Below, piece after piece: positions 1-23,523 of a stretch of 32,000 nt of DNA. The stretch's first letter is position 1, and each line of letters starts with the position of its first letter. The translations under genes were made by a program, and so were the position numbers. The notes beneath the pieces were generated by a model. It was given only the letters and a program-made list of their open reading frames with translations. It had not been told where the DNA came from and ran no database searches. This stretch comes from Patescibacteria group bacterium (lineage in GTDB: Bacteria > Patescibacteriota > Patescibacteriia > 2-01-FULL-39-33): the NCBI GenBank assembly GCA_041662745.1, contig JBAZRV010000005.1:30001-62000 (forward strand), given 5' to 3'.

Positions 1-1091
1 TCGGGATCTTTGCCGCTGGGAATGGTAATGACTTTGGAATTATAATTCAGGGCCGGATCAATGAACTGCGACAGCTTGCCGTGCCTGTCAAGGGAACTGA
101 CAATCCTGTCTTCCTTCTCAATATCCCGAACCAGCTCTTCGCCGCGATCGGTGGCTTTCTGGCCGGCCGAATCGGCGTCCAAAGCGAAATAAATATTATT
201 AGTGTAACGCTTGAGCAATTGCAACTGATCTTTGGTCAAAGCCGTACCCGAAGAAGCGACCGTGTTTTTGAAACCGTATTGATGGCAACTGACCGCATCC
301 ATTTGGCCCTCCACCACCACGGCGCAGTCCTGTTTTCTGATTTCATTCTTGGCTTGATACAAGGCAAAGACGATGGCGCTTTTGTTGTAAATATCGGTCT
401 GAGGCGTATTGACGTATTTGGCCGGCTCGTCTTTGGACAATGTCCGGCCGGTGAAACCGCAGACTCGGCCGTTGTGGTCAACGATGGGAAACATGATGCG
501 ATTCCGGAAACGGTCATAATACCCGCTTCCCCGATCCTTCCTGATGGTAAACCCGGCGGAAAATATTTCCTGTTCGGCGAACCCCCGCTTCCTCAAAAAC
601 TCAAACAGATTGCTCCAGTCGTCAATGGCATAACCGATTTTAAAATTCTCCATCGTTTCTTCACTGACGCTCCGGCCGGCCAGATAATCGCGCGCCGTTT
701 GCGCCCGCGGAGATTCTTGCAACACTTTCTGCCAATACCGGGCGGCCAAATCGCAAACATCGTACAGATTGTTTTTTCTGCTGGCGATTTCCGGCCGATG
801 GCGCGACAAAGTAACGCCGGCTTTCTGCGCTAAGATTTTCAAGGCTTCGGGAAAATCCATGTTTTCCAGCTTCATCAGGAATTCAAAAATATCTCCGCCC
901 GCACCGCAACCGAAGCAATGCCAACTGCCCCGGGCCGGCGAGACCATTAGCGACGGCGTCTTCTCATTATGGAAGGGGCAGAGCGCTTTGTACGCTCCCG
1001 CGCCGGCCGGCACCAATTTCAAGTATTCGCCGAGGAGCTCGGCGACGTCAATCTTGGCTTTGATTTGTTCTATTTCGGGACTGGAAGACAT
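1..1091 (-). CDS. dnaG: DNA primase DnaG, N-terminal ~363 codons (3' end lies beyond the window edge)
   Basis: Absent from the ORF track because it runs off the edge. Manual minus-strand translation from ATG 1091 gives MSSSPEIEQIKAKIDVAELLGEYLKLVPAGAGAYKALCPFHNEKTPSLMVSPARGSWHCFGCGAGGDIFEF..., the CHC2 primase zinc finger. Further downstream are RNRIMFPI and the TOPRIM-like VVVEGQMD...YFALDADSAGQKAT. Confidence 0.93.
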   Translation of the reverse strand, partial: MSSSPEIEQIKAKIDVAELLGEYLKLVPAGAGAYKALCPFHNEKTPSLMVSPARGSWHCFGCGAGGDIFEFLMKLENMDFPEALKILAQKAGVTLSRHRPEIASRKNNLYDVCDLAARYWQKVLQESPRAQTARDYLAGRSVSEETMENFKIGYAIDDWSNLFEFLRKRGFAEQEIFSAGFTIRKDRGSGYYDRFRNRIMFPIVDHNGRVCGFTGRTLSKDEPAKYVNTPQTDIYNKSAIVFALYQAKNEIRKQDCAVVVEGQMDAVSCHQYGFKNTVASSGTALTKDQLQLLKRYTNNIYFALDADSAGQKATDRGEELVRDIEKEDRIVSSLDRHGKLSQFIDPALNYNSKVITIPSGKDP

Positions 1092-1240: not shown

Positions 1241-1807
1241 ATGGATTTAATGTGTAACGACGCAATCAGGGCGACGCTTGGGTCTTTTGCGGATGTGAGA
1301 TATAAATATTTGGACTGGGGCTTGTTCCTTATCAGTGGTCCAAACAGTGCTGAAAGAGCTGAGATTCTGGCCAAGATAAAACGCCAGCTTCAATTTAATT
1401 TGGATCAAACCTTGATAATTACCGCCATGACGCAATTTTCAAACGGTCAACTGTTAGTCAATTTTGATTCTGTTACCGCTCCAGCCAACCCCTCCATCAA
1501 TCTTTCTGCCGATCCTCCGGCCGGTCCTTCCGTTGATCTTCCCGCCTGTCCTTCCACCAATCTTCCCGCCGAAAATAAAAAAAGGATTTTTCTTTACCAC
1601 GCCTATGATAGCAGTGGCAGAAAACCGGAACAAGGGACGATAATGGTTATCGCTACCGATGTAAACGCGGCTGATGAAACTTTAGCCGCCGCCGGGAAAA
1701 AATTAGCACTCTCTACGAATAGTATCTGCTGGGGTTGCGAGCTTAATGGCGTTGCCCTGCAAGAAACAAACGGCAATATCATCGCCTTGTTACCGCCATC
1801 GTATTAA
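1241..1807 (+). CDS. hypothetical protein, 188 aa, two halves joined by a Pro-rich repeat linker
   Basis: AAGGAG lies 6 nt upstream of the ATG. No TM segment or signal peptide. The linker PSINLSADPPAG-PSVDLPAC-PSTNLPAE is encoded by 24-nt tandem units (1524-1547, 1548-1571). No family recognised. Confidence 0.6.
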   Translation: MDLMCNDAIRATLGSFADVRYKYLDWGLFLISGPNSAERAEILAKIKRQLQFNLDQTLIITAMTQFSNGQLLVNFDSVTAPANPSINLSADPPAGPSVDLPACPSTNLPAENKKRIFLYHAYDSSGRKPEQGTIMVIATDVNAADETLAAAGKKLALSTNSICWGCELNGVALQETNGNIIALLPPSY

Positions 1808-1837
1808 GTTGAGGCAAAAAAACGAAGGGAGGAAGAA

Positions 1838-2293
1838 ATGAAAAACCATACAAGCGAAGCCAAGGATGAGCAGGGTACTCTCGGACAATTGTTGCGGGAA
1901 AAAGTCAAAGCCGGCAAACAAGCAAGGGAAGCTAAGGAACAAGAAGAACAACGCAAACGACTGGAACCGTTTATTAGCCGAGCTAACGATCTGATCAAGG
2001 AATTGCCCCGGATACTGGCAGAACGGGCGGATGAAGGAGCAACCAGTCACAACTTTCAATTCATTATCTTGCGTGATTTATTAAAAGATGAAATTAGCAG
2101 ACTCGGCGATGAACGCCACCAACCGCCCATAGATCAACGAATTATTGATTTATTCCGAAATGCTTATCTAACGCGATTTGTGCCTACTGCCGGAAAATTG
2201 CTTGGGGATTTCTGCAAGGATAATGATTTGGAGTACGATGATACATTACAAGAAACCCTCGGTCAAATCAGCGTTATCATCAGTTGGAAATAA
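1838..2293 (+). CDS. hypothetical protein, 151 aa, charged coiled-coil N-terminus plus globular C-terminus
   Basis: GGGAGG lies 5 nt upstream of the ATG and the gap to the previous ORF is 30 nt. The N-terminus is K/E/Q-rich (EKVKAGKQAREAKEQEEQRKRLE). No family recognised. Confidence 0.6.
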   Translation: MKNHTSEAKDEQGTLGQLLREKVKAGKQAREAKEQEEQRKRLEPFISRANDLIKELPRILAERADEGATSHNFQFIILRDLLKDEISRLGDERHQPPIDQRIIDLFRNAYLTRFVPTAGKLLGDFCKDNDLEYDDTLQETLGQISVIISWK

Positions 2294-2323
2294 AAACCCG
2301 CCAAAGCGGCAGGAGAATAAACT

Positions 2324-2932
2324 ATGCCTGAAGAAACGCCGAAGAACAAGCTTTATGAATTCCGTTGCTTCAGCCAAGTAACGGCCACCCAGGTAATAGC
2401 AATTGTGGCCGTTAATCTACAAACAGCTGTGGCAACCATGCTGAAGCACGGCTACCAAGTCGGTGGCGCTGACTTCTGGCTGGAACGAATCTATGACAAG
2501 GTTTTTGATCAAATCATCGTTACCGCTGAATCGGCGGAGTTATCCCCCGAGGACGCGGGATTGTCATCGCGGATTGAAAAAAACATCATCGAGCGATTGG
2601 AAGAATACCAAATAGAAAATCTAAAAAAAGAATTGCAAGCGCAGACGCTTAAACAGTTCGCCGATTTCTTGGCTGGCGCGAAAAACAAAACACTGAAATG
2701 CCATCCAGGGCTTTTGATGTTTGTCAGCCATCTAAAAACAAAGTCTGCTAATTGTTTCCCCGTCACCCTGGAACAAGTGCTGGCCTTGCCCCAATACAAA
2801 GAACTTGATTCGTTTTGCCAAAATAACGGCTATCGGTTAGAGGTTGATTTAAGGAATGAGCCGCTGATTAACGAGGGATTGGATTTTCAAATTCTCTATG
2901 TTGGCGTAAAACGGAAAACACTGATAGACTAA
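2324..2932 (+). CDS. hypothetical protein, 202 aa
   Basis: AGGAG lies 8 nt upstream of the ATG and the gap to the previous ORF is 30 nt. A terminator hairpin follows. No family recognised. Confidence 0.6.
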   Translation: MPEETPKNKLYEFRCFSQVTATQVIAIVAVNLQTAVATMLKHGYQVGGADFWLERIYDKVFDQIIVTAESAELSPEDAGLSSRIEKNIIERLEEYQIENLKKELQAQTLKQFADFLAGAKNKTLKCHPGLLMFVSHLKTKSANCFPVTLEQVLALPQYKELDSFCQNNGYRLEVDLRNEPLINEGLDFQILYVGVKRKTLID

Positions 2933-4049: not shown

Positions 4050-4056
4050 AAAATTT

Positions 4057-4087
4057 AGCTTATGGCTTATAGCATATAGCTTATAGC
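4057..4087 (-). promoter_or_regulatory. direct-repeat candidate operator/promoter region upstream of rbr-dfx
   Basis: Minus strand reads GCTATAAGC-TATAT-GCTATAAGC-CATAAGC. It fills most of the 47-nt gap between the ATPase stop (4097) and the rbr ATG (4049) and contains -10-like TATAAG/TATATG boxes. Confidence 0.3.
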
Positions 4088-4096
4088 CGATTAAAA

Positions 4097-6139
4097 TTAT
4101 CTGCTTTGCCTTATACTCATAATATCTTCCACCTCTTCATCAGCCGGCGGATTGTCCGGCAGAGCGGCAGAAAGAGTGTCCAATCCCCCACTTAAATCCG
4201 GCGGCGGAATCAATGGCTGGCGCGGTTCCAGTGATGACAAACTCAAAGGCGGGACGCTATCGTCCTCGTGGCGCACCAATTGCTCCAGCATCCTAATCGC
4301 CGGTTCGCGCGCCGGCGCCGGCTTGCGTCGTTCGTCTTTGACTTTCTTAAAACAATCATTGCAATATACCGGCCGGCCCTTTTCCGGCTGAAAATTCAAC
4401 TTGAACATCTTGCCGCACATGGAGCATTTGGCGTCAAACTTGCCGAACTCGCGACGTTCTCCCTGATCTTTTCTGGCGGGCGGGTCAGCAGCATACCGCG
4501 GCTCATCAACGCGCCTGTCATCCCGGCGTTCCGCCCTGCTTTCTGTACCGGCGGATCCGGCATCATCGCGCAGATCGCGATCGTCGCGTCGGGGCGGCCG
4601 GTCATCGCGTCGGGGCGGGCGGCTGTCCGGCCGGTCATCGCGACTGAAAGAACGGCTTTCGCGTCGGGGCGGTCGATCATCGCGCTTGGGCCAAACCATC
4701 GGCCGAGGCGGGGTCGGCAGCAAAGTGCCGGTGCCCAAAGCCGACAAAGAAATGGTCGGGCCGGCTACCGGCTCTTTCATCGGCACCACTTCACCCATTC
4801 TTAATTCGCCCTTTTCAGCATGAGCGGCGATATCGCCCATGCGCGTACTTAAATCAGCGGAGCTCCAACGATTGATCTTGTCTTCCACCACGGCGCGCGG
4901 ATTGGCGTATCTCTCGCGGGAAACATAAGTTACTTTTTCGCTGTTGTTAGTGCGGTATTCTTCAAATAACGGTGGCAGAGTGGCGGCGGAAAAAGGATCG
5001 GAAGAAACGCCGTCAATCATCAGTTTAAGGTAAACGGCAAAGGCCGGCAAGTTGACCAGATCTTCTTCGGTAAAAAACGGCGCGAATTCCAAAACCAGTT
5101 TCTCGGCATCAGCGGCGCCGACACGGAAACAAATCAATGTGCCGACGTTGCCGAATACGGCTGCCGCTACCTCTTCCGGCAACTGTTCAATATATTGATG
5201 CGCCACAATCAGATTGAGACGGTATTTTCTGGCTTCGGACAGGATATTGGCAAAACTTTCCGTAGCGAAGTTCTGAAATTCATCCACATAAAGATAAAAA
5301 TCGGGGCGGTCTTTCTCTAATATGTCCACCCGGCTCATGGCCGCCAAGTACAGCTTGGTCACGATCATGGAACCCAAAAGCTTCATGGTATCTTCGCCGA
5401 TCTTGCCTTTGGCCAAATTCAAAATCAAAATCTTCTTGTTATCCATGATTTCCCGCAAATCAATGGTGGAAGTCACCTGGCCGACGATATTGCGGATCAG
5501 AAAATTAGACAAGAATTGGCCGACTTTATTCTGGATGGGCGAAATGACTTCTTGCAAGGTCTTTTCATTCCATTTGGAATATTCATTAACCCAAAAACTG
5601 CGCACCACCGGGTCCTTGATTTTGGCCACGACTTTTTCGCGATAGTCCTTTTCCACCAGAATGCGCATGATGCCCAAAAGCGTGGAGCCGGGATAATCCA
5701 ACAACGACAAGATCGTATTGCGTAAAATATATTCCAAACGCGGGCCCCAGGAATCGGCCCAAAGTTTTTTGAAAACGGAAATAAGGCCGGAAGCGACGAA
5801 ATTCTTGTTGATTTCATCCACCGCTTCCAAAACGTTAAAGGCGATGGGAAACTCGGCATCGGCCGGATTAAGGTAAATCACGTCATTAATGCGGTGAGGC
5901 GGAATAAAGTCCAGCAATTTTTCGGCCGTATCGCCGTGCGGATCAATATAGCAACAGCCTTCGCCGTTTAAAATATCAGAAATAATAAGATTTTCCAGCA
6001 GGGTGGTTTTTCCCATGCCGGTTTTACCGATGACATACATGTGGCGGCGACGATCATCGCGCTTAATGCCAAAAGACCTGCGCGCATTGCGGTAGTTGGT
6101 TTCGCCAAAGATTGTTACGTTATTGTTTGGTTCGGGCAT
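4097..6139 (-). CDS. VirD4/TraG/TraD-type (type IV coupling-protein-like) P-loop ATPase lacking an N-terminal TM domain, with an Arg/Asp-rich repeat and CxxC-x17-CxxC zinc-ribbon tail
   Basis: Walker A GKTGMGKT (6005-6028). YIDPHGD motif. Walker B / TraG-D_C-like FYLYVDEFQNF...ARKYRLNLIVAHQYIEQL. Tail from aa ~485: RDDRPPRRESR...RPPRRDDRPPRRDDRDLRDD, then C572-x2-C575-x17-C593-x2-C596. Confidence 0.75.
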   Translation of the reverse strand: MPEPNNNVTIFGETNYRNARRSFGIKRDDRRRHMYVIGKTGMGKTTLLENLIISDILNGEGCCYIDPHGDTAEKLLDFIPPHRINDVIYLNPADAEFPIAFNVLEAVDEINKNFVASGLISVFKKLWADSWGPRLEYILRNTILSLLDYPGSTLLGIMRILVEKDYREKVVAKIKDPVVRSFWVNEYSKWNEKTLQEVISPIQNKVGQFLSNFLIRNIVGQVTSTIDLREIMDNKKILILNLAKGKIGEDTMKLLGSMIVTKLYLAAMSRVDILEKDRPDFYLYVDEFQNFATESFANILSEARKYRLNLIVAHQYIEQLPEEVAAAVFGNVGTLICFRVGAADAEKLVLEFAPFFTEEDLVNLPAFAVYLKLMIDGVSSDPFSAATLPPLFEEYRTNNSEKVTYVSRERYANPRAVVEDKINRWSSADLSTRMGDIAAHAEKGELRMGEVVPMKEPVAGPTISLSALGTGTLLPTPPRPMVWPKRDDRPPRRESRSFSRDDRPDSRPPRRDDRPPRRDDRDLRDDAGSAGTESRAERRDDRRVDEPRYAADPPARKDQGERREFGKFDAKCSMCGKMFKLNFQPEKGRPVYCNDCFKKVKDERRKPAPAREPAIRMLEQLVRHEDDSVPPLSLSSLEPRQPLIPPPDLSGGLDTLSAALPDNPPADEEVEDIMSIRQSR

Positions 6140-6144
6140 ATGGA

Positions 6145-7920
6145 TTAAGCGAAAGGCAAATTGGGCGGCGGAGCGCCTTTTCTTGAGGGCACAGTTCCTG
6201 GGCCCGAATTATCGGGTGGCGCATAAGCCGGCTGGGACGGCGGGTATTGCGATGGCGGCCGATAAGCGGGTTCTGCCGGCAATGAAGAAGGCATTGCCAT
6301 ATCAGGCAAAGGCGGAGCCAGCGGAGGCACGCCTGTCGCCGGTTCATAAGACGGTTCTTCAATAGGTGATTGATAAGCGGGCATTACAGGCGGAGGAGCG
6401 AACATTTGATCGGGAGAAACCGGAGCGGCGGGAGCAATGGGACGGCTATAAACCGAACGATCTTCTCTTTTAGCCGGACCGACACGCTGTTCATAGGGCA
6501 GGCGCGTGGGCGGAGCCGCTTTTTTGCTTTGAATCATGCCGACTTCCGTCGCCTTAACCGTCATTACCGGGAAGTGCCAAATAGTGGCCAACTCTTCGGG
6601 ATTAAGATAGGTGATCTTTTCGTTCACATTGCTCTCGCCGTACCAGGCATGGCGTTTGGAAAACCAACGCAGGATGCGATTCTGCTTCTCAGCGATGCGA
6701 TGATTGACAAAAAAATAATCAGCGGCGGTTTTGGTGTAAGAACCGGGCTTGAAACCGTTGGCATTTGTGGTATTGAATTGGTTAATGGCGCCAGTGATGC
6801 CGGTAACGCCGCGGCCCTTGGCAAAAACTTCCTTCTTGGCCAGATAAATCATGCGATACTTGACCTTGAATTGATGCTTGGAAAGTTTCTTTTCCACCAT
6901 TTCCAGAACCGTACGCTCGCCGGGCGACATCTTGAACATTTTCCATTGGTCTTCTTCCTTCTTCTTATCGGCGACCGCGCCAAGTTCCAAACCGATGGCG
7001 TGCCCGACTAAGCCCATGCCCCAATCAAGAGCGCCACCCAAGGGCTTGTTGATGATGTCGGCGGGATTAAAGCTTTCCGGCGCTTTATAAACCTCTTTCT
7101 TAAGTTCGGTCAAAACCTTTTTCACCGTTTCCGATTTCCAATAAGGAGCACCCTGCGGTTGGACAATGACCTGAATCCAAGTCTGTTCGCCCGGGCCAAG
7201 CCGGCTCATATTCTCTAACAGATTGGACATCGGATCCAAAAAGGCCTGGCTCAAACGATGTTCAAATTCTTCATAAGTTTTAATGGGGAAAGGATACTTT
7301 CTGGTCAAAACAAATTCCGCGCCCCACATGTTATACAGCTTATTGGGAAAATGCAATTTTGAAAACGGGATGGGCTGACCGGTTTTGGGATCAACATCTT
7401 CCGAATCGTAATTGGTGTAATCGTCAACCTCGGTGATTTCCGCGTCCGGATACTGGGAATAAAGCGCGGCTTGGATAAAATCAAGAAAATGCGCCGGGGT
7501 GCGGATAAAAAATCTAGTGTGGCCCTCAATGGACACCAATTCAAACGAAAAGCTCTCGGTCACCTTACCGTTCCAATACTTGTCAACTAAATTGGAGGAA
7601 GTAAAAACACCGGCTAAAGCGGCAAAAATATTCTCCACGGCTTTGGGCGTTTGTTCGTTGTTCTTGGGGATGTCTATCGCCAGAAAACGCCATTTCCATT
7701 TGCTCTGGAACCGGCCGGACTGATTCTCCAAAAAAATATCCTTGTAAGAACGCCACATGAACATCAAAACAAAAAGCACCCAGCCACCGTGCCAGAAGAA
7801 ATACCAGCCGATTTGCGCCGGATCCATTTGGCTGAATTGCAAAAACCAAGCTAAAAACCCCTCCCACAGATTGTTGTTGGCCAAGGAATACAAAATATTG
7901 TCGTAAATGTTCGGTTGCAT
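6145..7920 (-). CDS. membrane-anchored hypothetical protein, 591 aa, with a ~120-aa Pro-rich C-terminal tail
   Basis: N-terminal hydrophobic segments (LWEGFLAWFLQF, IGWYFFWHGGWVLFVLMFMW), a large soluble body, and the last 123 aa (6148-6516) P/A/Y/S-rich. Its stop is 5 nt before the ATPase ATG, so the two are probably co-translated as an operon. Confidence 0.6.
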   Translation of the reverse strand: MQPNIYDNILYSLANNNLWEGFLAWFLQFSQMDPAQIGWYFFWHGGWVLFVLMFMWRSYKDIFLENQSGRFQSKWKWRFLAIDIPKNNEQTPKAVENIFAALAGVFTSSNLVDKYWNGKVTESFSFELVSIEGHTRFFIRTPAHFLDFIQAALYSQYPDAEITEVDDYTNYDSEDVDPKTGQPIPFSKLHFPNKLYNMWGAEFVLTRKYPFPIKTYEEFEHRLSQAFLDPMSNLLENMSRLGPGEQTWIQVIVQPQGAPYWKSETVKKVLTELKKEVYKAPESFNPADIINKPLGGALDWGMGLVGHAIGLELGAVADKKKEEDQWKMFKMSPGERTVLEMVEKKLSKHQFKVKYRMIYLAKKEVFAKGRGVTGITGAINQFNTTNANGFKPGSYTKTAADYFFVNHRIAEKQNRILRWFSKRHAWYGESNVNEKITYLNPEELATIWHFPVMTVKATEVGMIQSKKAAPPTRLPYEQRVGPAKREDRSVYSRPIAPAAPVSPDQMFAPPPVMPAYQSPIEEPSYEPATGVPPLAPPLPDMAMPSSLPAEPAYRPPSQYPPSQPAYAPPDNSGPGTVPSRKGAPPPNLPFA

Positions 7921-7959: not shown

Positions 7960-7989
7960 ATTATAACATAATTCAGTCGGCGGCGCCAA
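7960..7989 (-). promoter_or_regulatory. candidate promoter of the membrane-protein/ATPase operon
   Basis: Minus strand: TTGGCG (7989-7984), then 18 nt, then extended -10 TGtTATAAT (7968-7960). The ~33-nt leader contains the hairpin TCCGAT-n7-ATCGGA (7932-7950). Confidence 0.4.
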
Positions 7990-7991
7990 AT

Positions 7992-8030
7992 CAAAAAAAA
8001 TAAATACCCGCCCTAAGCAGGTATTTATTT
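7992..8030 (-). terminator. rho-independent terminator after the sigma-region-4/HARE-HTH gene
   Basis: Perfect 11-bp inverted repeat AAATAAATACC / GGTATTTATTT with an 11-nt loop, followed by a T-run on the minus strand (A-run 7992-8000 on plus). Confidence 0.7.
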
Positions 8031-8129: not shown

Positions 8130-9326
8130 TTATTCCGCGTCAGCCACTTTTTCCAGAATCTCTTCGGCCTTGGCTTCAACAGCGCTTCCATCGGCCAAGA
8201 AATACTTGCCCTTGTCGTTGCGCTTGATATTGTCATGATTCATTAAGGCCAAATAAACGGTGGAGCGTTTGACATTGCGGCGTTCCAAAACCTTATCAAT
8301 GACTTGATCCTTGGCCAGGGGGCCTTCTTCTTTTAAAATATCAATAATAACGTCAGCTACATTGCCCGGGCGGTAACCCCATTCAGACAGGGCATAAATG
8401 CCGCGGCCGACCAAAACGTATTTCGGATCAAGGATTAATTCATTGTGAACGGTCGGAGCGTAAGCGATTTTGCCGTCAAAAGCATTCTTGTTTATTTCTG
8501 AAGCGATTTCAGTGAAATGCATAGGACGACCGGCCTTCTTCAGGGTCAAATAAATCTTATCGTTGATCTTCTTCGGCTTGACAATGCCCCAAGAGATCAA
8601 GCCCCAATTGTCAAAAATATCCTGTTGGATTTTTCTGGAAGCGCGCAAATAGCTTTCCAAAATCTTGTCAATATCCTCATCGGTAGCCTCTAACATGGTA
8701 GTCAAAGACAAAATCCGATCCTTGTTTTCATTATAGAAGCCGGAGTTCTTAAAACGATTCAAGAGTTCGATCAAACTGACGGGTTCTCCGTTTTTCTCAA
8801 TAATGCCGACCAGCTCGCTGATAACGCGTTTTAAAAAGTCGGTATCGGCAGAGCCTAAACGCCATAAATGATTGAATTCTTTATCCTGACCGACTTTATT
8901 AATGCGATCGGAAAAGATATGTTCAGCCAAAAACAACAAAGAATTCTCACTCTCCGGATGGGCGTTTAAATAATTAAGGACGTTTTCCAAGAAAAAAGCT
9001 TCTTCCATGACACCGCCGTATTGTTCCAAAAGCTGGGAAACTACGCCTTCGGCCTCGCGAATCTCATCCTTAAGATCGCGCAAATCCTTGAGCTTTTTGA
9101 TAGACAGGTTTTCAATCTGTCTGACGCGCTCGCGGGTAATGCCGTAAACCTGGCCGATTTCTTCCAGGGTATGCTTTTTATCAACGCCTAAGCCAAAGCG
9201 CTTTCTAACAACGTCCCGTTCCTTTTCGGACAGGTTATTGAATAAGGTGTTGATCACATCGACCGGATTAAAGGCGGATAAACCGTCCTTAAACTTGTTT
9301 TTTCTGACTTGATCCAAGATGGACAT
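8130..9326 (-). CDS. sigma-70 region-4 HTH protein fused to a C-terminal HARE-HTH/winged-helix region (not a complete sigma factor)
   Basis: N-terminus LSEKERDVVRKRFGLGVDKKHTLEEIGQVYGITRERVRQIENLSIKKLK is sigma region 4. I see no region-2-like segment. The C-terminal part PMHFTEIASEI...VHNELILDPKYVLVGRGIYALSEWGY fits the HARE-HTH pattern. The ORF track starts at TTG 9362. I prefer ATG 9326 because a consensus promoter sits at 9344-9372. Confidence 0.7.
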   Translation of the reverse strand: MSILDQVRKNKFKDGLSAFNPVDVINTLFNNLSEKERDVVRKRFGLGVDKKHTLEEIGQVYGITRERVRQIENLSIKKLKDLRDLKDEIREAEGVVSQLLEQYGGVMEEAFFLENVLNYLNAHPESENSLLFLAEHIFSDRINKVGQDKEFNHLWRLGSADTDFLKRVISELVGIIEKNGEPVSLIELLNRFKNSGFYNENKDRILSLTTMLEATDEDIDKILESYLRASRKIQQDIFDNWGLISWGIVKPKKINDKIYLTLKKAGRPMHFTEIASEINKNAFDGKIAYAPTVHNELILDPKYVLVGRGIYALSEWGYRPGNVADVIIDILKEEGPLAKDQVIDKVLERRNVKRSTVYLALMNHDNIKRNDKGKYFLADGSAVEAKAEEILEKVADAE

Positions 9327-9343
9327 ATGATAATTAATATTGA

Positions 9344-9372
9344 ATATTAAACTAATCGCCAATTATTGTCAA
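9344..9372 (-). promoter_or_regulatory. proximal sigma70-type promoter
   Basis: Minus strand: TTGACA (9372-9367), then 17 nt, then TAATAT (9349-9344). ATG 9326 lies 17 nt after the -10. Confidence 0.55.
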
Positions 9373-22453: not shown

Positions 22454-23523
22454 TTTTTCTTTTTAATTAATTGCAAAATAATATCCGCCACTGCTCCAGC
22501 GCCGTTTTGCGGCATCATTTTTCTAATATTCTTTGACAGCTTATCAAGTTTGTCGTCGCTTTTGATCAATTCGCTAATAACGTCGGCCAACATCTTTTTA
22601 TTCAACGAGACTTCGGATAAAACCACGGCGGCGTTATGCTTCTGGAAATAATTGGCGTTGTCCTCTTGGTGCGTCCGATACATCGGAATAATGATTGACG
22701 GTTTGCCACAGTAAGATAACTCCGACAAAGTGGACAGTCCGGCACGCGTTACCACCAAATCGGCTACGCACAAGGCCTCGGGCATCTCATGGGTTATGAA
22801 TTCAAATTGGCGGTAATTATCAGCGGAAAAATTTATCTTTTTGCCCTTGCCGGTAACATGAATCACTTGGATGAATTTCATCAGGTCAGGCAGAGCTTGA
22901 TCCAGTATTTTATTGACCGTGGCCGCGCCCGTACCGCCTCCGGTAAAAAACACTATTGGCACGTCCTTCTTCAGACCGAATAATTCACGGCTTTTCTCCT
23001 TATCGCAATGGCTGAATTCTTCCCGAATGGGATTGCCGGTTAGAGTTGCTCGGCCGCGCTTGAAATCGCGCAGAGAAATATCAAAGGATACGGTGATTTT
23101 TCTGGCCACCGGCGACATTAAACGATTGGCCAAGCCGACTTCAATATCTTGCTGATGGATTAGGATGGGAATGCGCAACAGCCCTGCCGCCCAAGCTAAA
23201 GGCACACCAACATAAGCGCCGGCCACCATCACTAACTGTGGACGAAAAGCAAGCAAGATTTTCAGGGATTGCAAAAATCCCCAGATAATTTTAAACGGAT
23301 CAATAAAGTTCTGCCAAGAAAAATAACGGCGGAACTTTCCTGAAGTAACGGCTAAGAAGGGTATCTTATAGCTTTCCACCGCTGATCGTTCCGGACCGTT
23401 AGCGGTGCCGACAAACAAAAACTCCGCTTCGGACTGACGTTTTTTGATTTCCTGATAAACGGCGATAAGCGGACTGACCGAACCCATGGTACCGCCGCCG
23501 GATAATAATATTTTATATTTCAT
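22450..23523 (-). CDS. murG: undecaprenyldiphospho-muramoylpentapeptide beta-N-acetylglucosaminyltransferase MurG
   Basis: N-terminal LLSGGGTMGSVSPLIAV, C-terminal FFTGGGTGAA...VTRAGLSTLSEL, position within the dcw cluster. Confidence 0.92.
   Translation of the reverse strand: MKYKILLSGGGTMGSVSPLIAVYQEIKKRQSEAEFLFVGTANGPERSAVESYKIPFLAVTSGKFRRYFSWQNFIDPFKIIWGFLQSLKILLAFRPQLVMVAGAYVGVPLAWAAGLLRIPILIHQQDIEVGLANRLMSPVARKITVSFDISLRDFKRGRATLTGNPIREEFSHCDKEKSRELFGLKKDVPIVFFTGGGTGAATVNKILDQALPDLMKFIQVIHVTGKGKKINFSADNYRQFEFITHEMPEALCVADLVVTRAGLSTLSELSYCGKPSIIIPMYRTHQEDNANYFQKHNAAVVLSEVSLNKKMLADVISELIKSDDKLDKLSKNIRKMMPQNGAGAVADIILQLIKKKK

What the first reader, a model, noticed from the sequence alone, without database searches (positions are those of the whole stretch)
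4097..7920. Stand-alone membrane protein plus TM-less VirD4/TraG-like ATPase pair with no other T4SS or conjugation genes nearby
The ATPase has Walker A GKTGMGKT, YIDPHGD and a TraG-D_C-like FYLYVDEFQNF...AHQYIEQL block. Those motifs match type IV coupling proteins, but the N-terminal transmembrane anchor those proteins normally carry is missing. Immediately upstream, with a 5-nt gap, is a 591-aa protein with N-terminal TM helices and an unrecognisable soluble body. That protein could supply the membrane anchor in trans. Both proteins end in long low-complexity tails, Pro-rich in one and Arg/Asp plus zinc ribbon in the other. No relaxase, VirB4/B6, pilin, integrase or plasmid genes occur in the window. 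The pair sits among housekeeping genes and has its own promoter and terminator. This looks like a chromosomal two-component translocase or motor, with nucleic acid as a possible substrate, rather than a conjugation remnant.
Basis: partly seen in the sequence, partly recalled or inferred. Interest (0 to 1): 0.72.

Follow-up and report, generated by a model that had tools for sequence, protein, structure and literature searches.

The report
Split type IV coupling ATPase pair
These two adjacent genes are the two halves of one known kind of membrane-anchored motor, a type IV secretion "coupling protein", split into an anchor gene and an ATPase gene; the pair is conserved across the tiny Patescibacteria at least as strongly as core housekeeping genes and lies away from any secretion-system genes.

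Summary
ORFs 6145-7920(-) (591 aa) and 4097-6139(-) (680 aa), 5 nt apart, encode a single-pass membrane protein and a TM-less VirD4/TrwB-type ATPase, and every annotatable gene in the window is housekeeping.

The "unrecognisable" body of the membrane protein is Pfam DUF8128. It is homologous (hhalign prob 100, E 3e-43) to the N-terminal 420 residues of ~850-aa Patescibacteria proteins in which it is fused directly to the same ATPase. That fused architecture also aligns end to end with the coupling proteins of conjugative T4SS/relaxase clusters on an Embleya plasmid and a Bacillus subtilis plasmid (E 5e-50 and 3e-35). The pair is therefore a split T4CP of a monoderm class. Its N-domain has VirB4 N-domains as its only significant PDB fold match.

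The ATPase follows the anchor gene in 66 of 80 species-level genomes. Its core is more conserved than SecA (67% vs 55% identity).

In published S. epibionticum Tn-seq data, the counterpart in the same gene neighbourhood is dispensable, and a second paralogue is essential.

The anchor-in-trans idea is supported. Independence from a T4SS is undecided. I class this as a new variant of a known kind, of moderate interest.

The parts
6145..7920 (-). Gene for the anchor half: a 591-aa single-pass membrane protein with a cytoplasmic DUF8128 domain
   Evidence: ORF. More than 1,494 homologues, nearly all carrying PF26449. hhalign against the fused-family profile: prob 100, E 2.7e-43, residues 41-480.
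7750..7812 (-). Transmembrane segment (residues 37-57, IGWYFFWHGGWVLFVLMFMWR), predicted N-out/C-in
   Evidence: Highest hydropathy window in the protein, with 0 K/R before it and 5 K/R after it. It falls inside a long helix, 34-73, in the AF2 model. In the fused relatives no TM segment lies between this domain and the ATPase.
6556..7698 (-). DUF8128 core (residues ~75-455), including the invariant EELAxxWHFP motif (442-451)
   Evidence: pLDDT is mostly above 90. Invariant columns are listed. The only significant PDB fold matches are TrwK/VirB4 chains, at E 1e-4 to 8e-4 and TM 0.25-0.32.
6172..6513 (-). Disordered Pro-rich tether (residues ~470-583)
   Evidence: 29.5% Pro. pLDDT is below 55. 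Length and sequence vary among homologues.
6148..6171 (-). C-terminal peptide PPPNLPFA (residues 584-591), a proposed docking motif
   Evidence: L588 and P589 are invariant, and P584, P585 and N587 are at least 90% conserved. The motif is present at the extreme C-terminus in 62 of 75 species representatives. It repeats the KKAxPPTRLPY junction that precedes the ATPase domain in the fused relatives.
4097..6139 (-). Gene for the motor half: a 680-aa TM-less T4CP-type ATPase
   Evidence: ORF. Pfam hits are TrwB_AAD_bind, T4SS-DNA_transf, TraG-D_C and zf_Tbcl_2. The only PDB sequence matches are TrwB and DotL.
4850..6139 (-). ATPase core (residues 1-430): P-loop domain plus inserted helical region. 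Walker A at 6005-6028, Walker B at 5276-5299.
   Evidence: Many invariant columns across 31 homologues. Median identity to species representatives is 67%. The 41-43% identical domain of the fused paralogue superposes on TrwB at target-normalised TM 0.64-0.66.
4439..4732 (-). Arg/Asp/Pro-rich disordered linker (residues ~470-567)
   Evidence: Composition. Not conserved in length or sequence. A 33-nt imperfect repeat lies at 4595-4657.
4337..4438 (-). CxxC-x17-CxxC zinc ribbon (residues 568-601; C572, C575, C593, C596)
   Evidence: PF23477 at 45 bits and TIGR04272 at 42.8 bits, both above cut-off. All four cysteines are invariant.
7960..7989 (-). Sigma-70-like promoter match (TTGGCG-18-TATAAT, TG upstream) 40 nt before the anchor gene's start codon
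   Evidence: Consensus scan, 10 of 12 matches. Sequence read. This is a pattern match only.
8130..9362 (-). Conserved upstream neighbour: a sigma-70 region 4 + HARE-HTH protein. Its membership of the system is not established.
   Evidence: Pfam hits. The same cluster lies directly upstream in 52 of 80 loci. A gene with the same domains lies directly upstream of a fused T4CP homologue in S. epibionticum (SEML1_0294/0293). A terminator-like hairpin at 7998-8030 separates it from the pair in this window.

Best explanation
The two genes encode one type IV coupling protein (VirD4/TrwB family) that has been split into two polypeptides.

The ancestral single-chain form is an N-terminal membrane helix, then a ~400-aa cytoplasmic DUF8128 domain, then the P-loop motor with its helical insert. 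This form is the coupling protein of conjugative T4SS clusters on an Embleya plasmid and a Bacillus subtilis plasmid, and it also survives as a fused paralogue in Patescibacteria.

In this lineage the break lies just before the motor domain.
- The 591-aa protein inserts N-out/C-in and keeps the DUF8128 domain on the cytoplasmic face. It ends in a flexible Pro-rich tether carrying a conserved PPxNLP(F) peptide.
- The 680-aa protein is a complete motor with a disordered Arg/Asp-rich linker and a zinc ribbon.

Inferred steps:
1. The 5-nt gap gives coupled translation of the two halves.
2. The anchor recruits the motor to the membrane through the DUF8128 domain and the terminal peptide, rebuilding the single-chain protein.
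3. The motor forms a ring, as TrwB does, and uses ATP to recruit and feed a substrate into a membrane channel. The zinc-ribbon tail plays the substrate/adaptor-binding role that C-terminal tails play in other coupling proteins.
4. The most likely channel is the chromosomal T4SS that most Patescibacteria encode elsewhere, with this copy handling a conditionally dispensable cargo.

The identity, homology, split and conservation are shown. The assembly, the ring, the cargo and the channel partner are inferred.
For: Identity of the motor:
- Pfam T4CP families score above their cut-offs.
- TrwB and DotL are the only PDB sequence matches, both for the single sequence and for the profile.
- Walker A/B and the other motifs are invariant.

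The split:
- ORFs of 852-856 aa in loci L016, L020 and L067 carry a TM segment, a DUF8128-like domain and the ATPase in one chain.
- That fused family has 1,473 scored members, and the 120 listed carry PF26449 plus T4CP domains.
- The anchor profile aligns to residues 22-418 of the fused form (prob 100, E 2.7e-43).
- phrog_5156 matches both window proteins in the same order.

Membership of a true T4CP class:
- The fused profile aligns over 688 columns with the 812-aa T4CP of an Embleya plasmid cluster (TrbL-like, PrgI, VirB4-like, T4CP, replication-relaxation, NlpC/P60; E 5e-50).
- It aligns over 647 columns with a 913-aa B. subtilis plasmid protein that lies next to replication-relaxation, TcpE and ATP-binding (VirB4-type position) genes (E 2.8e-35).

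Linkage: the ATPase lies immediately downstream on the same strand in 66 of 80 species genomes, often with a gap of 10 nt or less.

Selection: the ATPase core has a median identity of 67%, against 55% for SecA and 39.5% for MurB in the same loci.

Topology: positive-inside rule, and no TM segment before the motor in the fused forms.

Context in the literature: 5,713 VirD4-type homologues in 2,918 of 3,035 Patescibacteria genomes, only 148 of them near virB4, and VirB4 itself in 2,417 genomes (PMC12102498).
Against: - No T4SS gene lies in this 32-kb window or within 10 kb of the fused paralogue. The proposed channel partner is therefore an assumption.
- In S. epibionticum the T4CP homologue next to the sigma-r4/HARE-HTH gene (SEML1_0293) tolerates transposon insertions, while the T4SS genes are essential. 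This copy therefore cannot be the sole coupling factor for the essential T4SS function. The orthology rests on gene order alone.
- By the published counts, T4CP homologues occur in more genomes than VirB4 does.
- The docking role of the PPxNLP peptide is inferred from conservation and position. No complex model was possible, and 13 of 75 representatives lack the motif.
- Some genomes keep the anchor gene without an adjacent ATPase. Five loci share a different downstream gene set.
Confidence: 0.55

Rival explanations
1. The pair is the same split T4CP-type motor, but it works without a T4SS. It would be a self-standing membrane-associated translocase or remodeller for nucleic acid, possibly acting with another channel such as the competence pore. 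This would make it a housekeeping machine exapted from conjugation.
For: - The pair is unlinked to T4SS genes here and almost everywhere (148 of 5,713 near virB4).
- T4CP homologues are found in 2,918 genomes against 2,417 for VirB4.
- The ATPase core is more conserved than SecA, which is unusual for plasmid-type coupling proteins.
- The gene order with SecD/SecF and an essential sigma-r4/HARE-HTH gene is stable.
- The Arg/Asp-rich linker and zinc ribbon are compatible with nucleic-acid binding.
- The authors of PMC12102498 state that exaptation cannot be ruled out.
Against: - One TM helix per subunit is unlikely to form a conduit, so some channel is still needed.
- The two full-length non-Patescibacteria relatives whose surroundings were examined sit in T4SS/relaxase clusters.
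- The excess of T4CP over VirB4 detections may partly reflect two paralogues per genome in incomplete assemblies.
- The counterpart by gene order is dispensable in S. epibionticum, which argues against an essential housekeeping role there.
Confidence: 0.3
2. The pair is a split VirB4-type assembly ATPase and not a coupling protein. The DUF8128 protein would be the VirB4 N-domain (with a VirB3-like helix), and the ATPase would be the VirB4 C-domain.
For: - The eight best Foldseek matches of the anchor model are all TrwK/VirB4 chains, seven of them at E 1e-4 to 8e-4.
- The fused paralogue aligns to full-length TrwK over ~900-950 columns at E 8.6e-14.
- The motif at the junction aligns with the stretch just before the ATPase domain of the VirB4-like protein of the Embleya cluster.
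Against: - TM-scores to VirB4 are only 0.25-0.32. The motor half matches TrwB much better (target-normalised TM 0.64-0.66, rmsd 5-6 A).
- Sequence profiles hit only T4CPs in the PDB.
- TIGR00929 VirB4 scores 22 bits against a cut-off of 643.
- In the Embleya cluster a separate VirB4-like gene sits next to the DUF8128-type T4CP.
- Patescibacteria have their own VirB4 clade.
Confidence: 0.08
3. The pair is a remnant or cargo of a mobile element (a decayed conjugative element or prophage), or an anti-phage defence ATPase.
For: - PADLOC mad8 matches at E 1e-19, with weaker HerA hits.
- A PHROG family matches.
- A 395-aa stand-alone relative (40.8% identity) sits beside a recombinase and transposases on a Sulfitobacter plasmid.
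Against: - The pair sits in a housekeeping setting wherever it was examined, and the same SecD/SecF and sigma-r4/HARE-HTH block lies upstream in most of the 80 species genomes.
- It is under stronger conservation than SecA.
- The window holds no integrase, other defence gene or tRNA.
- IMG/VR holds no relative of the anchor protein, and the plasmid collection holds none either.
Confidence: 0.03

Closest known systems
TrwB (R388), VirD4 and DotL: canonical type IV coupling proteins
   Same: - P-loop motor with Walker A/B and the TraG-D_C block.
- A helical insert covered by the TrwB_AAD_bind profile.
- These are the only PDB sequence matches.
- The paralogue's motor domain superposes on TrwB at target-normalised TM ~0.65.
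- As in other T4CPs, there is a C-terminal extension that could bind cargo or adaptors.
   Different: - The canonical proteins carry their own two N-terminal TM helices and no DUF8128 domain.
- They are usually encoded with a relaxase and/or T4SS genes.
- Here the anchor is a separate protein, the tail is a zinc ribbon, and there is no T4SS linkage.
Single-chain DUF8128-type T4CPs of monoderm conjugative elements (Embleya plasmid NZ_CP108778 WP_331738717.1, 812 aa; B. subtilis plasmid NZ_OX419568 WP_213380696.1, 913 aa)
   Same: They show collinear homology across both the N-domain and the motor to the Patescibacteria family (hhalign E 5e-50 and 2.8e-35; BLASTP 26% identity over ~690 residues). 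A counterpart of the EELAxxHFP junction motif is present.
   Different: - Each is one polypeptide.
- They are embedded in clusters with VirB4-like, PrgI/TcpE, VirB6-like, replication-relaxation and cell-wall hydrolase genes.
- They share only 27-34% identity with the window ATPase.
Fused Patescibacteria paralogue (for example P0388, 856 aa) and S. epibionticum SEML1_0293 and SEML1_0142
   Same: - They have the same domains in the same order.
- They occur in the same genomes as the split pair (L016, L020, L067).
- SEML1_0293 lies directly downstream of a sigma-r4/HARE-HTH gene, as the window pair does.
   Different: - They are single-chain proteins with no zinc-ribbon tail.
- The motor is 41-43% identical to the window's.
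- The ABY1-type fused copy sits next to a small ~160-aa protein and DnaX.
- In Tn-seq, SEML1_0293 is non-essential and SEML1_0142 is essential.
- Orthology to the window genes is inferred from gene order only.
VirB4 (TrwK) with VirB3
   Same: - VirB4 chains are the only significant PDB fold matches of the DUF8128 domain, and the fused form has a comparable N-domain + ATPase layout.
- From general knowledge, not tested here: VirB3 and VirB4 occur either as separate proteins or fused, which parallels an anchor supplied in trans.
   Different: - No sequence-level similarity was found in the N-domain (0 Pfam/NCBIfam hits; no PDB profile hits at E up to 10).
- The motor is T4CP-like, not VirB4-like.

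Membership tests
Type IV coupling protein (VirD4/TrwB/TraG-TraD family) | P-loop NTPase domain recognised by the family profiles, with intact Walker A and B | tested here: met
   PF10412 scores 38.3 bits (cut-off 20.5), PF02534 25.4 (20.1) and PF12696 26.7 (22). GKTGMGKT and DEF are invariant. TrwB and DotL are the only PDB sequence hits.
Type IV coupling protein (VirD4/TrwB/TraG-TraD family) | All-alpha domain inserted in the nucleotide-binding domain | tested here: inconclusive
   The TrwB_AAD_bind match spans residues 27-345. The 41-43% identical paralogue has a helical block at 517-646 and matches whole TrwB at target-normalised TM 0.65. The window protein itself was not modelled.
Type IV coupling protein (VirD4/TrwB/TraG-TraD family) | N-terminal transmembrane anchor in the same polypeptide | tested here: not met
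   The ATPase has no TM-like segment. The anchor lies on the separate upstream protein, which is homologous to the N-terminal part of single-chain family members.
Type IV coupling protein (VirD4/TrwB/TraG-TraD family) | Genomic association with a relaxase and/or mating-pair-formation (VirB4, VirB6...) genes | tested here: not met
   None was found in the 32-kb window or within 10 kb of the fused paralogue. The rest of the genome could not be searched.
Type IV coupling protein (VirD4/TrwB/TraG-TraD family) | Hexameric ring, ATP hydrolysis, and substrate recruitment to a T4SS channel | not testable with these tools
   This needs biochemistry, multimer modelling or genetics.
DUF8128 (Pfam PF26449) | Match to the family profile | tested here: met
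   A precomputed hit is recorded on the window protein, marked weak, and on nearly all homologues. The local Pfam copy returned nothing. hhalign to the DUF8128-bearing fused family gives prob 100.
VirB4/TrbE/CagE ATPases | Family profile match, and the VirB4-type N-terminal domain recognisable by sequence | tested here: not met
   TIGR00929 scores 22.2 bits against a cut-off of 643, over residues 279-360 only. No CagE_TrbE_VirB or TraC hit on the anchor protein. Only a low-TM fold resemblance was found.
Anti-phage defence ATPases (MADS mad8, HerA-type) | Profile match together with the other genes of the system | tested here: not met
   mad8 matches at E 1e-19, but no partner genes are present, and the pair sits in a conserved housekeeping context.

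The most novel reading that the evidence does not exclude
Patescibacteria keep two ancient, vertically inherited descendants of a conjugative coupling protein as core cellular machines. The copy seen here is split into anchor and motor, sits next to an essential sigma-r4/HARE-HTH gene, and carries a zinc-ribbon tail. In this reading it acts independently of any T4SS, as a membrane-tethered nucleic-acid (DNA or RNA) translocase or exchange motor tied to the epibiotic lifestyle.
Probability: 0.25. Interest if true: 0.75.

Novelty: new variant of a known kind. Interest (0 to 1): 0.5.

Why it matters
Patescibacteria depend on other cells, and their T4SS is essential in the one genetically tractable species. 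What that system moves, and what feeds it, is unknown.

Published work notes about two unlinked "T4CP homologues" per genome and leaves their role open. This analysis adds four things:
1. The homologues belong to a class of coupling proteins with a large DUF8128 N-domain, shared with Gram-positive conjugative elements.
2. One copy is split into an anchor gene and a motor gene, with a conserved terminal peptide.
3. The motor is under stronger constraint than SecA.
4. By gene order, the two copies correspond to a dispensable and an essential gene in the S. epibionticum Tn-seq data.

Together these give concrete targets for experiments: deletion, interaction and localisation. They also assign DUF8128 a defined context. 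If the resemblance to the VirB4 N-domain holds up, it would bear on how T4CPs and VirB4 diverged.

Tried and rejected
- Family scans. Local Pfam, NCBIfam and PADLOC scans of the anchor protein returned nothing. A PDB sequence-profile search with alignment A1 returned nothing at E up to 10.
- Exact-sequence lookup. Looking up the anchor protein by exact sequence found no record. The ATPase lookup did work.
- Direct comparisons. hhalign of the anchor profile against the Embleya N-terminal half alone was weak (prob 19). The link became clear only through the fused-family profile. hhalign of the fused profile against the VirB4-like protein of the Embleya cluster aligned only the junction and the ATPase, not the N-domain.
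- Other collections. tblastn of the anchor protein against plasmids found nothing. IMG/VR held no relative.
- Literature. Searches for DUF8128, TrwB_AAD_bind together with CPR terms, and CxxC-x17-CxxC found no description of the pair.
- pLS20. The T4CP of pLS20 is described as 786 aa with two TM helices and sits in a different gene order, so the B. subtilis plasmid hit is not treated as pLS20.
- FtsK replacement. I considered this idea and set it aside, because papers on Saccharibacteria TM7x mention FtsK (those papers were not read further).
- Defence or mobile-element readings. Rejected on gene context and conservation.

Full report
**1. What is in the sequence**

The two ORFs are exactly as reported: 6145-7920(-), 591 aa, and 4097-6139(-), 680 aa, separated by 5 nt.

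The downstream protein has Walker A GKTGMGKT (residues 38-45), YIDPHGD, Walker B DFYLYVDEFQNF (280-291) and AHQYIEQL. It scores above the curated cut-offs of three T4CP Pfam families (TrwB_AAD_bind, T4SS-DNA_transf, TraG-D_C) and of the CxxC-x17-CxxC zinc-ribbon families. A hydropathy scan finds no TM-like segment in it.

The upstream protein has one aromatic-rich hydrophobic segment (residues 37-57). No K/R precedes it and five follow it, which predicts an N-out/C-in orientation. Its last 120 residues are 29.5% proline. Residues 470-567 of the ATPase are 25.5% Arg and 17% Asp.

Every gene in the window that could be annotated is housekeeping: desulfoferrodoxin, rubrerythrin, YceG, BacA, Fpg, NUDIX, SecA, HPF, the mur/ftsW/mraY cluster and Wzy_C. 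There is no tRNA, integrase, relaxase or T4SS gene.

A promoter-like site (TTGGCG-18-TATAAT) follows a terminator-like hairpin just upstream of the pair. No terminator-like site separates the ATPase from rubrerythrin 47 nt downstream.

**2. The membrane protein is the detached N-terminal half of a coupling protein**

Its homologues number more than 1,494 clusters at 90% identity, and 3,283 representatives at 50% identity reach E up to 0.001. Every homologue that a source names is labelled Patescibacteria, one of its candidate phyla, or just "bacterium". Almost all carry Pfam PF26449, DUF8128. The window protein itself has only a weak precomputed hit.

An AlphaFold2 model is confident over residues ~30-450 and disordered beyond.

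In three of the 80 species-level loci fetched, a second gene 7-9 kb away encodes an 852-856-aa protein. It consists of a TM helix, a DUF8128-like domain and, with no break, a T4CP-type ATPase 41-43% identical to the window's.

That fused family is itself large, and the 120 listed members carry PF26449 together with PF10412, PF02534 or PF12696. The profile of the stand-alone membrane protein aligns with residues 22-418 of the fused form at probability 100 and E 2.7e-43.

Independently, the library profile phrog_5156 (824 positions) matches the membrane protein at its positions 74-130 and the ATPase at positions 402-804.

The break lies at a conserved junction. The fused consensus reads ...HFPLPxTETPNIxWLxARKAPPPVNMPxEGxILGxNxYRG.... 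The split proteins read ...WHFPVxTVKAPxVEKxxSKKAxPPTRLPY...[variable Pro-rich linker]...PPxNLPxx-COOH, followed by the ATPase N-terminus (M + 7 variable residues)ITxFAETNFRN....

The terminal PPxNLP peptide repeats the junction motif. It is present at the extreme C-terminus in 62 of 75 species representatives.

**3. The single-chain form is a genuine T4CP of monoderm conjugative elements**

tblastn of the ATPase core against plasmids found 590 records.

On an Embleya plasmid, the hit is the C-terminal half of an 812-aa [quoted passage not shown]. Its neighbours are a TrbL/VirB6-like protein, PrgI, a VirB4-like ATPase, a replication-relaxation protein and an NlpC/P60 hydrolase. It aligns with the Patescibacteria fused profile over 688 columns, N-domain included (prob 100, E 5e-50; BLASTP 26% identity, E 3e-60).

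A 913-aa B. subtilis plasmid protein does the same over 647 columns (E 2.8e-35). It lies next to replication-relaxation, TcpE and ATP-binding (VirB4-type position) genes.

So DUF8128 is the N-domain of a class of real coupling proteins, and the window pair is a fission product of that class.

In the PDB, the only sequence relatives of the ATPase are TrwB and DotL. The motor half of the fused model superposes on TrwB at target-normalised TM 0.64-0.66.

**4. Fold of the N-domain**

The eight best Foldseek matches of the membrane-protein model are all TrwK/VirB4 chains from R388. Seven have E 1e-4 to 8e-4, with probability 0.99-1.0 but TM of only 0.25-0.32. Everything else has E of at least 0.1.

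The fused model aligns with full-length TrwK over 900-950 columns at E 8.6e-14.

**5. Linkage and selection**

The ATPase lies immediately downstream on the same strand in 66 of 80 loci. Of the 14 without a clear adjacent ATPase, about three (L032, L037, L080) run into or close to the contig end, so adjacency there cannot be judged. Five share a different downstream gene set.

A recurring order is [HPF-SecA]-SecD-SecF-(sigma-70 region 4 + HARE-HTH protein)-anchor-ATPase. The sigma-like gene is directly upstream in 52 loci.

Against the window's proteins, median identity in these genomes is 67% for the ATPase core, 55% for SecA, 39.5% for MurB and 39% for the DUF8128 core. This rules out a decaying remnant.

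No relative of the anchor protein was found in IMG/VR or in the plasmid collection.

**6. What is already published**

Quinonero-Coronel et al. 2025 (PMC12102498) report 5,713 VirD4-type homologues in 2,918 of 3,035 Patescibacteria genomes. Only 148 are near virB4, and VirB4 itself is in 2,417 genomes. They remark that exaptation of t4cp cannot be ruled out.

I found no description of the DUF8128 partner, the split or the fused paralogue.

The supplementary tables of Wang et al. 2023 (PMC10633639) list two long T4CP-like genes in S. epibionticum.
- SEML1_0293 is 2,766 bp, with TrwB_AAD_bind at residues 402-719. It is non-essential and lies directly downstream of SEML1_0294, an essential protein with Sigma70_r4 and HARE-HTH domains.
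- SEML1_0142 is 3,060 bp, with a P-loop domain at residues 381-800. It is essential and is preceded by a small essential hypothetical gene.

By gene order, the window pair corresponds to the dispensable copy. The ABY1-type fused paralogue, which is likewise preceded by a ~160-aa protein, corresponds to the essential one. I could not check this with sequences.

**7. Mechanism**

Shown:
- the pair is a T4CP-family motor plus its detached membrane/N-domain half;
- the gene pairing is conserved;
- the catalytic motifs are intact;
- purifying selection is strong.

Inferred:
- the two halves are translated together and reassemble at the membrane;
- the terminal peptide serves as a tether or dock;
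- the motor forms a ring like TrwB;
- the zinc-ribbon tail recognises cargo or an adaptor;
- the motor delivers into a channel.

I favour the chromosomal T4SS as that channel, with this copy serving a dispensable cargo. The reasons are that the two full-length relatives outside Patescibacteria whose surroundings I examined are T4SS components, and that one TM helix per subunit is a poor conduit.

The T4SS-independent reading remains substantial (about 0.3), because of the lack of linkage, the wider distribution than VirB4, and the Tn-seq result.

**8. Verdict**

- The anchor-in-trans idea is supported.
- "Rather than a conjugation remnant" is supported.
- "A distinct two-component translocase independent of T4SS" is not established.
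- This is a new variant (a split form) of a known kind. Interest is moderate.

Noticed in passing
window 8130-9362 (-): A 410-aa protein with sigma-70 region 4 at the N-terminus and a HARE-HTH further on lies directly upstream of the pair. The same gene cluster is directly upstream in 52 of 80 species loci. In S. epibionticum a gene with the same two domains (SEML1_0294, essential in Tn-seq) lies directly upstream of a fused T4CP homologue. Whether this is a functional link or just old synteny is open.
   Followed up: partly
L016 1524-4094; L020 75-2633; L067 1059-3617; L085 10001-12580: A second, fused DUF8128-T4CP paralogue occurs in the same genomes, preceded by a small ~160-aa protein and followed by DnaX or other housekeeping genes. 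The similarly arranged S. epibionticum gene SEML1_0142 is essential. The published remark that the Patescibacteria t4cp is non-essential therefore appears to cover only one of the two paralogues.
   Followed up: partly
window 4056-4087: A 7-nt tandem repeat (TAGCTTA x4.6) fills most of the 47-nt spacer between the ATPase stop codon and the rubrerythrin start codon. No terminator-like hairpin was found there, so rubrerythrin and desulfoferrodoxin may be co-transcribed with the pair.
   Followed up: no
window 23513-24607 (-): A 364-aa ORF with no Pfam hit sits inside the cell-wall operon, between murG and ftsW.
   Followed up: no
L081 7986-9173 (Sulfitobacter mediterraneus plasmid NZ_CP081110): A stand-alone 395-aa ATPase is 40.8% identical to the Patescibacteria ATPase core. 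This is the closest relative found in the plasmid collection. It lies next to a recombinase and transposases, with no anchor gene nearby, and may reflect horizontal transfer.
   Followed up: no
window 1241-2932 (+) and 81-833 (+): Four ORFs of 151-250 aa gave no Pfam hit. According to the gene calls on the matching ENA contig, DnaG runs off the left end of the window on the minus strand.
   Followed up: no
L004, L009, L014, L019 and many others (genome contigs record titles): Many contigs that carry this Patescibacteria-specific pair and the matching gene order are titled "uncultured Gammaproteobacteria bacterium". This looks like a placeholder or wrong taxonomy label in those records.
   Followed up: no
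ATPase residues ~620-680 and homologues (alignment A3): Beyond the zinc ribbon, the ATPase tails share short conserved motifs: an (I/V)SLxxAL-like stretch and, in many homologues, a terminal KPGQVVKF-like peptide. These suggest further docking peptides.
   Followed up: no
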